From the NCBI RefSeq assembly GCF_017348835.2, contig NZ_CP071375.1: a stretch of 64,000 nucleotides of DNA. One strand, 5' to 3'. Of this stretch, positions 63,369 through 64,000 are shown in pieces. The DNA comes from Escherichia coli. GTDB lineage: Bacteria > Pseudomonadota > Gammaproteobacteria > Enterobacterales > Enterobacteriaceae. A program made the translations under genes and the position numbers. A model generated the notes under the pieces. It was not told the origin of the DNA. It saw only the letters and a list, made by a program, of their open reading frames with translations, and did no database searches. The stretch's first letter is position 1, and the number at the start of each line of letters is the position of its first letter.

Positions 63369-63905
63369 GGCCGCAGGCTGTTACCCTGCGGCCGGTTTCG
63401 GGCGCATATTGCCATCACGGCAGCCTGACGCCCGTTTTCGCCTTACTTCCGGTTACGCCACCAGCCGACAATCGCTGCGGTAATAATTCCCGCCAGGATC
63501 GGTGCTGCCAGGTCGTGCCAGAAAATCATGGCAAACTGCGCGAGCGTCATATAGCCGCCTTGTTGTAATGACAACATTTTGCGGCTATTCTTGAATTGTT
63601 GATGGTTCAAGATTAGCCCCCGTTCTGTTGTCAGGTTTTACCTCTCAACGTGCGGGGGTTTTCTCTTTCCAGCAACCAATGCCACCAGGGATAAAGCCCC
63701 CGCAACATTGCGCCTCACCGGATAACGCCGGCTTGGTGTGGATACTACGACTCAATTCATCTTCACTTCATCCCTGAAATGTTTGCAATGAAGAGTGCAT
63801 TCCGGTTTTTCAACAGCTGTTACAGTCGTTTCATGAGTGCTCTGGATGATGCTTCCAGCTCGGGTTGCCAATATTTACTTGTGGAAGTGATAAAGACAAA
63901 AATGG
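63369..63905. repeat. long direct repeat (LDR) unit, about 536 bp period; second unit begins at 63905 and runs off the window
   Basis: 63369..63470 recurs at 63900..64000 with two differences; the second copy's ldr stop codon sits at 63979..63981. Confidence 0.8.
63443..63550 (-). CDS. ldrA: type I toxin-antitoxin toxin peptide Ldr (35 aa)
   Basis: Minus-strand translation gives MTLAQFAMIFWHDLAAPILAGIITAAIVGWWRNRK; the first of the ldr/rdl long direct repeats after kdsA, as in K-12. Too short for the ORF track. Confidence 0.8.
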   Translation of the reverse strand: MTLAQFAMIFWHDLAAPILAGIITAAIVGWWRNRK

Positions 63906-64000
63906 CCGCAGGCTGTTACCCCTGCGGCCGGTTTCGGGCGCATATTGCCATCACGGCAGCCTGACGCCCGTTTTCACCTTACTTCCGGTTACGCCACCAG

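What the first reader, a model, noticed from the sequence alone, without database searches (positions are those of the whole stretch)
63369..64000. ldr/rdl long direct repeats (type I toxin-antitoxin) downstream of kdsA
A 35-aa hydrophobic Ldr toxin ORF lies on the minus strand at 63443..63550, and a second unit repeats with a 536-bp period, running off the window. By established knowledge each LDR unit also encodes a cis-antisense Rdl RNA overlapping the ldr mRNA leader, expected on the plus strand somewhere in about 63600..63880. I cannot fix its ends from sequence alone.
Basis: partly seen in the sequence, partly recalled or inferred. Interest (0 to 1): 0.3.

Follow-up and report, generated by a model that had tools for sequence, protein, structure and literature searches.

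The report
Known ldr/rdl toxin-antitoxin repeats

Summary
Both the observation and the interpretation hold. The 35-codon ORF at 63443..63550 (-) is a full-length Ldr toxin (Pfam PF13940, 87.7 bits). It differs from K-12 LdrA and LdrB by one residue each. A second unit starts about 63896, with a 536-nt period, and runs off the window after the last six ldr codons.

Rfam rdlD (RF01813) matches 63599..63664 (+) over its full length (83.6 bits, E 7e-18).

Unit 1 is 98.9% identical to K-12 LDR-A. The flanking genes match K-12 (prfA-prmC-sirB2-sirB1-kdsA-LDR-chaA). The same 705 nt occur at 100% identity in many E. coli genomes.

Inferred anatomy:
- an ldr mRNA of about 373 nt (63734 to 63362), with Rdl complementary to leader nt 70-137, 47 nt upstream of the ldr AUG;
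- a predicted fold-back that pairs the ldr ribosome-binding site with its 3' UTR.

One small extra: a common 1-nt leader insertion puts an upstream ORF in frame with ldr, unlike K-12.

Verdict: already known, low interest.

The parts
62441..63295 (+). kdsA CDS (context; upstream neighbour of the LDR array)
   Evidence: 284-aa ORF. Identical position annotated as kdsA in PE164 and O157:H7.
63312..63346 (+). kdsA terminator-like hairpin ending in a T-run
   Evidence: Inverted repeat I1, 15-nt arms, 87% complementary. Function inferred.
63361..63896 (-). LDR unit 1, one full 536-nt repeat
   Evidence: Repeat families D1 and D2. 98.9% identical to K-12 LDR-A. Multiple alignment.
63359..63393 (-). 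ldr-1 intrinsic terminator (9-bp GC-rich stem 63393->63369, then TTTTTTGTAT)
   Evidence: Terminator scan. Conserved in all LDR units aligned.
63419..63425 (-). Predicted anti-SD (GGCUGCC) in the ldr 3' UTR, paired with the ldr ribosome-binding site in the predicted fold
   Evidence: Minimum-free-energy fold of the 373-nt mRNA, z = -7.0. The same pairs appear in the consensus fold of 11 homologues, but almost all are invariant, so there is no covariation proof. Inferred.
63443..63550 (-). ldr-1 CDS, 35-aa Ldr toxin
   Evidence: Annotated Ldr family toxin in identical genomes.
63555..63561 (-). ldr Shine-Dalgarno region (AAGGCGG)
   Evidence: Read from the sequence. Invariant or nearly so in 11 homologues. 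Inferred.
63563..63591 (+). Putative rdl promoter: -35 TTGTAA (63563-68), 17-nt spacer, -10 TATTCT (63586-91)
   Evidence: Read from the sequence, placed relative to the K-12 rdlA 5' end. It has only 8 of 12 consensus matches, so the promoter scan did not list it. Inferred.
63598..63665 (+). rdl gene: Rdl antisense antitoxin RNA (17-nt 5' tail plus a long terminator-like hairpin and U-run)
   Evidence: Rfam RF01813 at 63599..63664, 83.6 bits. Ends set by alignment to annotated K-12 rdlA. Fold -27.7 kcal/mol, z = -5.1. Terminator-like site at 63640-63659.
63551..63734 (-). ldr-1 mRNA leader, about 184 nt; Rdl is complementary to its nt 70-137
   Evidence: The 5' end is inferred from where conservation with K-12 LDR-D begins. 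Leader nt 19-69 are 98% identical to LDR-D, against 66% for the CDS.
63631..63708 (-). 25-codon leader ORF (AUG preceded by GGUGAGG); candidate regulatory leader ORF
   Evidence: Frame-shifted in K-12 LDR-C, so the peptide is not conserved. Role unknown.
63551..63610 (-). Leader ORF starting at UUG 63610 (GGGGG 6 nt upstream), inside the Rdl target. Here it is in frame with ldr (55-aa fusion ORF 63443..63610); in K-12 A/B/C it ends at a UGA overlapping the ldr AUG
   Evidence: The exact allele is present in at least 2,692 records.
63742..63747 (-). Putative ldr promoter -10 (TAGTAT; TAGAAT in LDR-D)
   Evidence: First block conserved between A-type and D-type units. No good -35, and not listed by the promoter scan. 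Inferred.
63896..64000 (-). Start of LDR unit 2: terminator hairpin 63904-63929, 3' UTR, and the last 6 codons plus stop of ldr-2 (63979..64000); cut by the window end
   Evidence: In genomes identical over this stretch the ORF continues as a 35-aa LdrB-identical peptide.

Best explanation
The region holds one complete and one truncated copy of the E. coli long direct repeat (LDR), a chromosomal type I toxin-antitoxin module.

Shown here from sequence:
- The minus strand encodes a 35-aa Ldr peptide: one transmembrane helix with a PxxxG motif, then WW and a basic tail.
- The plus strand encodes Rdl (63598..63665).
- The Rdl-complementary stretch ends 47 nt upstream of the ldr AUG, so Rdl does not cover the ribosome-binding site.

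Inferred from sequence:
- Rdl lies entirely inside the ldr mRNA leader (this depends on the inferred 5' end).
- The ldr mRNA is about 373 nt, from about 63734 to about 63362.
- It begins with a 5' hairpin and folds back so that its SD and AUG pair with a conserved 3' UTR segment. That would keep the full-length mRNA translationally inert, as in hok.
- Rdl pairs perfectly with leader nt 70-137, which contain a UUG start with a GGGGG SD-like run.

Taken from the literature on K-12 ldrD/rdlD and ldrA:
- Rdl blocks Ldr synthesis at the level of translation. The proposed route is occlusion of a leader ORF (ldrX) to which ldr translation is coupled.
- The sense/antisense duplex is cut by RNase III.
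- If Ldr is made, it inserts in the inner membrane. LdrA overexpression causes a rapid ATP drop and LdrD overexpression causes nucleoid condensation; both arrest growth.

The physiological role of the chromosomal copies is unknown.
For: Identity:
- Pfam Ldr_toxin full-length match and a match to the solved LdrD peptide.
- Rfam rdlD full-length match above the gathering score.
- 98.9% DNA identity to K-12 LDR-A, with annotated ldrA/rdlA at homologous positions.
- Synteny kdsA-LDR-chaA.
- The sequence is present in 5,425 of 5,426 complete E. coli genomes.

Structure:
- Rdl hairpin, z = -5.1.
- ldr mRNA fold, z = -7.0, with SD/AUG paired to the 3' UTR. The fold-back is retained in the 11-sequence consensus.
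- Leader nt 19-69 are 98% conserved and the 3' UTR 80%, against 66% for the CDS, in the comparison with LDR-D.

Literature:
- Rdl overlaps the 5' UTR, not the RBS. RdlD co-expression suppresses LdrD toxicity. The ldrX coupling model is proposed but unconfirmed (PMC4147584; PMC8167048; PMC8594479).
- An RNase III-dependent dsRNA peak lies in the ldrD/rdlD overlap (PMC7373196).
- LdrA and LdrD effects, and the PxxxG/W signature (PMC8309996; PMC7472228).
Against: - No expression data exist for this strain.
- Both promoters match the sigma-70 consensus poorly and the scan listed none.
- The ldr mRNA 5' end is inferred, not mapped.
- The Rdl stem and the fold-back pairs are nearly invariant in the 11 sequences available, so covariation gives no independent support: 0 of 19 and 2 of 102 pairs show compensatory change.
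- The reading-frame relation between the UUG leader ORF and ldr differs between common alleles. That sits awkwardly with a strict stop/start-overlap coupling model.
- Reviews state that the Rdl mechanism is still unknown.
- NCBIfam gave no match for the peptide.
Confidence: 0.95

Rival explanations
1. Same locus, different mechanism. Rdl silences ldr mainly by triggering RNase III cleavage and decay of the ldr mRNA, not by blocking translation of a leader ORF.
For: - The Rdl-ldr overlap is a perfect duplex of about 68 bp.
- A roughly 21-nt RNase III product peak maps to the ldrD/rdlD overlap, and ldrD and rdlD half-lives rise slightly in an rnc mutant (PMC7373196).
- The frame relation between the leader ORF and ldr is not conserved.
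Against: - The effect of rnc on full-length ldrD was only 'slight'.
- Reviews list Ldr/Rdl under 'inhibit protein synthesis'.
- The ldr mRNA is described as stable despite the presence of Rdl (title of Kawano 2002, cited).
Confidence: 0.2
2. The unit is a decaying or differently regulated copy. The 1-nt insertion in the leader and Rdl 5' tail fuses the upstream UUG ORF to ldr, so ribosomes starting there would make a 55-aa N-terminally extended, possibly non-toxic, product instead of coupling to the ldr AUG.
For: - Frame analysis.
- N-terminal tagging abolishes LdrA toxicity (PMC8309996).
- Second units in related genomes do decay: IS4 sits in rdl-2 of PE164 and rdl-2 of O157:H7 has a 6-nt deletion.
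Against: - The allele is found exactly in at least 2,692 records of complete E. coli genomes (best place at >=99% identity) and in another Escherichia species, so it is not a recent lesion.
- The ldr ORF, SD, Rdl, terminators and fold-back elements are all intact.
- It is not known that the UUG ORF is translated at all.
Confidence: 0.07
3. The ORF and repeat are a hok/sok-family locus or a chance hydrophobic ORF in an intergenic repeat.
For: A sub-threshold Rfam 'sok' match on the ldr leader (27 bits, E 8e-4). T1TAdb notes that Ldr/Rdl loci resemble Hok/Sok in RNA organisation.
Against: - The sok score is far below its gathering score of 59.
- The peptide matches only Ldr_toxin in Pfam.
- The rdlD model matches at 83.6 bits.
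Confidence: 0.01

Closest known systems
E. coli K-12 LDR-A (ldrA/rdlA, b4419/b4420), first of three tandem units between kdsA and chaA
   Same: - Same position directly after kdsA.
- 98.9% DNA identity over the unit.
- Same terminator, SD, Rdl hairpin and leader.
- The peptide differs by one residue, S29G.
   Different: - The window's Rdl 5' tail and leader carry a 1-nt insertion plus a substitution (GUUGAUGG against GUUCUGG). This changes the frame of the UUG leader ORF relative to ldr.
- Two genomes identical to the window over its last 705 nt (O157:H7 PV15-279 and PE164) have two units here, not three.
E. coli K-12 LDR-D (ldrD/rdlD, b4453/b4454), the experimentally characterised unit
   Same: - Same architecture.
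- Rdl passes the same Rfam model.
- Leader nt 19-69 are 98% identical.
- The 3' UTR core and terminator are conserved.
- The LdrD peptide (PDB 5LBJ) aligns over all 35 residues.
   Different: - Different chromosomal locus (bcsG-yhjV) and a single copy.
- The CDS is only 66% identical at DNA level.
- The loop and bulges of the inner Rdl hairpin differ.
hok/mok/sok of plasmid R1 and chromosomal hok loci
   Same: It works alike. There is a stable toxin mRNA with a long leader, a small cis-antisense RNA that targets the leader rather than the toxin RBS, a proposed leader ORF, and a predicted 5'/3' fold-back that sequesters the translation start.
   Different: It is not a member. The peptide family is different and the Rfam sok match is sub-threshold. 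Leader-ORF coupling and 3' processing have not been demonstrated for ldr.
Fst/RNA II (par of pAD1), Gram-positive branch of the Fst/Ldr superfamily
   Same: Same toxin signature: a transmembrane helix with PxxxG (P17-I-L-A-G21 here), then a tryptophan and a charged C-terminus (sequence).
   Different: Regulation is distinct. Fst loci use convergent transcripts that pair at 3' ends and direct repeats, not a 5'-leader antisense RNA.

Membership tests
Ldr toxin (Pfam PF13940) | Full-length match to the 35-residue Ldr_toxin model above the gathering score | tested here: met
   87.7 bits against cutoff 27, residues 1-35 on profile 1-35. NCBIfam returned no family.
Fst/Ldr superfamily | Hydrophobic transmembrane helix containing PxxxG, followed by a conserved Trp and a charged C-terminus | tested here: met
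   ...AAPILAGIITAAIVGWWRNRK has P17xxxG21, W30/W31 and RNRK. Signature as defined in PMC7472228.
Rdl antitoxin RNA (Rfam RF01813 rdlD) | Match to the covariance model at or above the gathering score of 50 bits | tested here: met
   83.6 bits, E 6.7e-18, model 1-66 of 66, 63599..63664 on the + strand.
Ldr/Rdl type I toxin-antitoxin | The antisense RNA gene lies opposite the toxin mRNA leader, 5' of the ORF, and does not overlap the RBS or start codon | tested here: met
   Rdl is at 63598..63665 and the ldr AUG at 63550, leaving a 47-nt gap. Criterion from PMC4147584 and PMC8594479. That Rdl lies fully inside the mRNA rests on an inferred TSS near 63734.
Ldr/Rdl type I toxin-antitoxin | Regulatory leader ORF (ldrX) overlapping the toxin translation start | tested here: inconclusive
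   Candidate ORFs exist (AUG 63708; UUG 63610). Their frames and ends vary between units. The papers that define ldrX were not available.
Ldr/Rdl type I toxin-antitoxin | The peptide is toxic on overexpression, Rdl counteracts it, and both RNAs are transcribed | not testable with these tools
   Known only for K-12 LdrD and LdrA. The window peptide differs from LdrA and from LdrB by one residue each.
LDR (long direct repeat) array at kdsA-chaA | Tandem repeats of about 530 nt, each with ldr and rdl, directly downstream of kdsA | tested here: met
   536-nt period. Unit 1 is complete and unit 2 is cut by the window end. Homologous annotated arrays exist in K-12, O157:H7 and PE164. The chaA side lies outside the window.
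Hok/Sok | Match to the Rfam sok model at the gathering score, or a Hok-family peptide | tested here: not met
   sok scores 27 bits against 59. Pfam finds only Ldr_toxin.

The most novel reading that the evidence does not exclude
The two common E. coli alleles of the first LDR unit differ by a 1-nt indel inside the Rdl 5' tail and ldr leader.

- In the window's allele the Rdl-masked UUG ORF runs in frame into ldr, giving a 55-aa product.
- In the K-12 allele the same ORF stops at a UGA that overlaps the ldr AUG.

If that ORF is the proposed coupling ORF (ldrX), the alleles would be a natural switch between two outcomes. One is termination-reinitiation coupling that yields toxic Ldr. The other is an N-terminally extended, possibly inactive, peptide. 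Comparing the two alleles would then be a ready-made test of the still unproven ldrX model.
Probability: 0.1. Interest if true: 0.3.

Novelty: already known. Interest (0 to 1): 0.07.

Why it matters
It matters little beyond annotation. The locus is a textbook type I toxin-antitoxin array described in 2002 and present in essentially every E. coli genome.

Practical value:
- RefSeq annotates the ldr ORFs but nothing under the rdl gene in non-K-12 genomes. Fixing Rdl at 63598..63665 therefore fills an annotation gap.
- The mechanism of Rdl action is still formally unresolved in the literature. Three observations here give concrete mutational targets: the common leader-frame polymorphism, the near-invariant leader segment (nt 19-69), and the predicted pairing of the 3' UTR with the ribosome-binding site.

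Tried and rejected
- **Promoter scan.** It listed no sigma-70 promoter on either strand. The rdl and ldr promoters proposed here reach only about 8 of 12 consensus matches. They rest on position and conservation, not on the scan.
- **NCBIfam scan of the peptide.** No family was found.
- **Literature.** I tried to read Kawano 2012 and Fozo 2008 for the published ldrX and mRNA ends, and the T1TAdb supplements. None is held. Published transcript ends could not be compared, and my candidate leader ORFs cannot be equated with ldrX.
- **Covariation tests.** On Rdl and on the ldr mRNA fold-back, stems are almost invariant. The tests are uninformative, not negative.
- **Pattern scan of 100,044 species genomes with the Rdl core.** It returned only 7 stretches: Escherichia species, Pseudocitrobacter, and one probable contaminant. 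That is too little diversity for structure proof. The exact-match pattern would miss diverged relatives.
- **Source genome.** PE164 is 100% identical over window 40000-64000 but lacks the IS element at 24600-25909. No complete E. coli genome has that junction. So what follows position 64000 in the true source is unknown.
- **Hok/Sok membership.** Rejected because the match is sub-threshold.

Full report
**1. Observation**

The minus-strand ORF at 63443..63550 encodes MTLAQFAMIFWHDLAAPILAGIITAAIVGWWRNRK.
- It matches Pfam Ldr_toxin over its whole length (87.7 bits, cutoff 27).
- It matches the solved LdrD peptide 5LBJ (E 2e-10).
- It differs from K-12 LdrA only at S29G and from LdrB only at T9I.

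A direct repeat restarts at about 63896:
- 63361-63386 recurs at 63896-63921, and 63384-63464 recurs at 63920-64000 (99%), with spacings of 535 and 536.
- The second ldr stop codon is at 63979..63981.
- The window ends after WWRNRK*.

**2. Identity and context**

- The 705 nt after kdsA are 100% identical to many E. coli chromosomes, and homologous sequence occurs in 5,425 of 5,426 complete genomes.
- In O157:H7 PV15-279 and in strain PE164 the gene order is prfA-prmC-sirB2-sirB1-kdsA-ldr-ldr-chaA.
- K-12 has ldrA/rdlA, ldrB/rdlB and ldrC/rdlC at the same place.
- Unit 1 (63361..63896) is 98.9%, 97.4% and 92.8% identical to K-12 LDR-A, -B and -C respectively.

**3. The Rdl gene**

- Rfam rdlD (RF01813) matches 63599..63664 on the plus strand over the full model (83.6 bits against a gathering score of 50, E 6.7e-18).
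- Alignment to the annotated K-12 rdlA puts the 5' end at G63598 and the 3' end at about 63665.
- The RNA has a 17-nt 5' tail, then a long imperfect hairpin and a U-run (-27.7 kcal/mol, z = -5.1). The terminator scan also picks this up.
- A weak but well-placed promoter precedes it: TTGTAA, 17-nt spacer, TATTCT at 63563..63591. It has 8 of 12 consensus matches, which is below the scan's threshold, so it is inferred.

**4. The ldr transcript (inferred)**

- Conservation between A-type units and the diverged K-12 LDR-D begins abruptly at TAGTAT/TAGAAT (63747..63742). It then continues through a 5' hairpin whose stem is kept through changed loop and flank bases.
- I therefore place the 5' end near 63734.
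- With the terminator at 63393..63369 plus its T-run, the mRNA is about 373 nt with a 184-nt leader.
- Rdl is complementary to leader nt 70-137 and ends 47 nt before the ldr AUG. This is the arrangement the literature describes for the family (PMC4147584; PMC8594479).

**5. Predicted regulation elements**

*Fold-back.*
- The full mRNA folds far better than shuffles (-167 kcal/mol, z = -7.0).
- In that fold the SD (63555-63561) and the start codon pair with a 3' UTR segment (63419-63425 and neighbours), and leader nt 21-25 pair with GCGCC near the terminator.
- The same long-range pairs appear in the consensus fold of 11 units from E. coli, E. whittamii, Escherichia sp. E1V33 and Pseudocitrobacter. 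Almost all are invariant, so there is no covariation proof.

*Segment conservation against LDR-D.*

| Segment | Identity |
|---|---|
| Leader nt 19-69 | 98% |
| nt 138-184 | 84% |
| 3' UTR | 80% |
| Rdl target | 77% |
| CDS | 66% |

The non-coding parts are therefore under stronger constraint than the peptide.

*Leader ORFs.*
- One is a 25-codon AUG ORF (63708..63631) with a GGUGAGG SD. It is frame-shifted in K-12 LDR-C.
- The other starts at UUG 63610 inside the Rdl target, with GGGGG 6 nt upstream.
- In K-12 A/B/C the UUG frame ends at a UGA overlapping the ldr AUG.
- In the window a 1-nt insertion puts it in frame with ldr (55 codons).
- That exact allele is the best match (>=99% identity over the 51-mer) in at least 2,692 records, roughly half of the 5,426 complete E. 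coli genomes. It also occurs in Escherichia sp. E1V33.
- I could not obtain the papers that define ldrX, so I cannot say which ORF it is.

**6. Mechanism**

Shown in the literature for K-12:
- LdrD overproduction is lethal, and co-expressed RdlD suppresses it.
- Rdl acts on protein synthesis.
- The ldrX coupling model is a proposal that still needs confirmation.
- RNase III cuts the ldrD/rdlD duplex.
- LdrA sits in the inner membrane and collapses ATP within minutes. LdrD condenses the nucleoid.
- Deleting the loci gives no phenotype.

Inferred here:
- The transcript ends.
- The fold-back that hides the RBS.
- That Rdl masks the UUG start region.

**7. Comparison and novelty**

- It is a member of the Ldr toxin family, the Rdl RNA family and the LDR array. 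Every sequence-testable defining feature was met.
- It works like hok/sok but is not a member: the sok model scores 27 bits against 59.
- Nothing about the finding is new. The only mildly interesting point is the common leader-frame polymorphism.

**8. Limits**

- No expression data were available.
- The source strain is not in the collections. PE164 is identical over window 40000-64000 but lacks the IS at 24600-25909, and no genome carries that junction.
- The state of unit 2 beyond 64000 is therefore unknown.
- In relatives, unit 2 is sometimes damaged. IS4 sits inside the rdl-2 hairpin in PE164, and rdl-2 has a 6-nt stem deletion in O157:H7.

Noticed in passing
window 24600..25909: A 1310-bp IS3-family element (IS629/IS1203-like). 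It has 25-nt terminal inverted repeats, orfA at 24654..24980 and orfB at 24980..25867. It splits a leucine-rich-repeat ORF (23692..24597 and 25674..26441, minus strand) that is a single 478-aa gene in the closest genome, PE164. The insertion junction is absent from all 5,426 complete E. coli genomes searched.
   Followed up: partly
L003 (E. coli PE164, NZ_CP114128.1) ~2190..3600; equivalent to about 190 nt beyond the window end: In the genome identical to the window's last 24 kb, IS4 is inserted in the 3' arm of the rdl-2 hairpin (...CAACGTGCGG|TAATGCCAGTC...). This destroys Rdl-2 and at the same time cuts ldr-2 from its promoter and leader. The Rfam score drops to 55.1 bits.
   Followed up: partly
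L001 (E. coli O157:H7 PV15-279) 3839..3898: The second-unit rdl carries a 6-nt deletion (CCGTTC) in the 5' arm of the hairpin. The score is 66.6 bits, against 83.6 for unit 1.
   Followed up: no
window 63580..63630 and RefSeq genomes: RefSeq (PGAP) annotates no feature under the rdl gene in non-K-12 genomes, although the Rfam model matches strongly. The antitoxin is systematically unannotated.
   Followed up: no
window 63666..63716 (-), ldr leader nt 19-69: This 51-nt stretch lies outside the Rdl overlap. It is 98% identical between A-type units and the otherwise diverged LDR-D (CDS 66%). It contains the SD and AUG of the 25-codon leader ORF and the 5' partner of two predicted long-range helices. 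The reason for such strong constraint is not explained.
   Followed up: partly
L010 (Pseudocitrobacter vendiensis) 1255..1641: An LDR-like unit outside Escherichia. Its ldr ORF has a premature TAG and gives a 30-aa peptide without the basic tail, while rdl is intact at 85 bits.
   Followed up: no
L013 (503-nt contig of a 'Bacillus sp.' assembly, coverage 0.66x): It carries an Escherichia D-type rdl at 90.4 bits. This is almost certainly contamination of that assembly.
   Followed up: no
window 63548..63701 (-): A sub-threshold Rfam 'sok' (RF01794) match on the ldr leader, ending exactly at the ldr AUG (27 bits, gathering score 59, E 8e-4). It may reflect the hok-like organisation of the leader, or chance.
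   Followed up: no
E. coli genome collection: 31 of the 26,773 places matching the LDR query lie on records classed as plasmids. LDR units are usually described as chromosomal.
   Followed up: no
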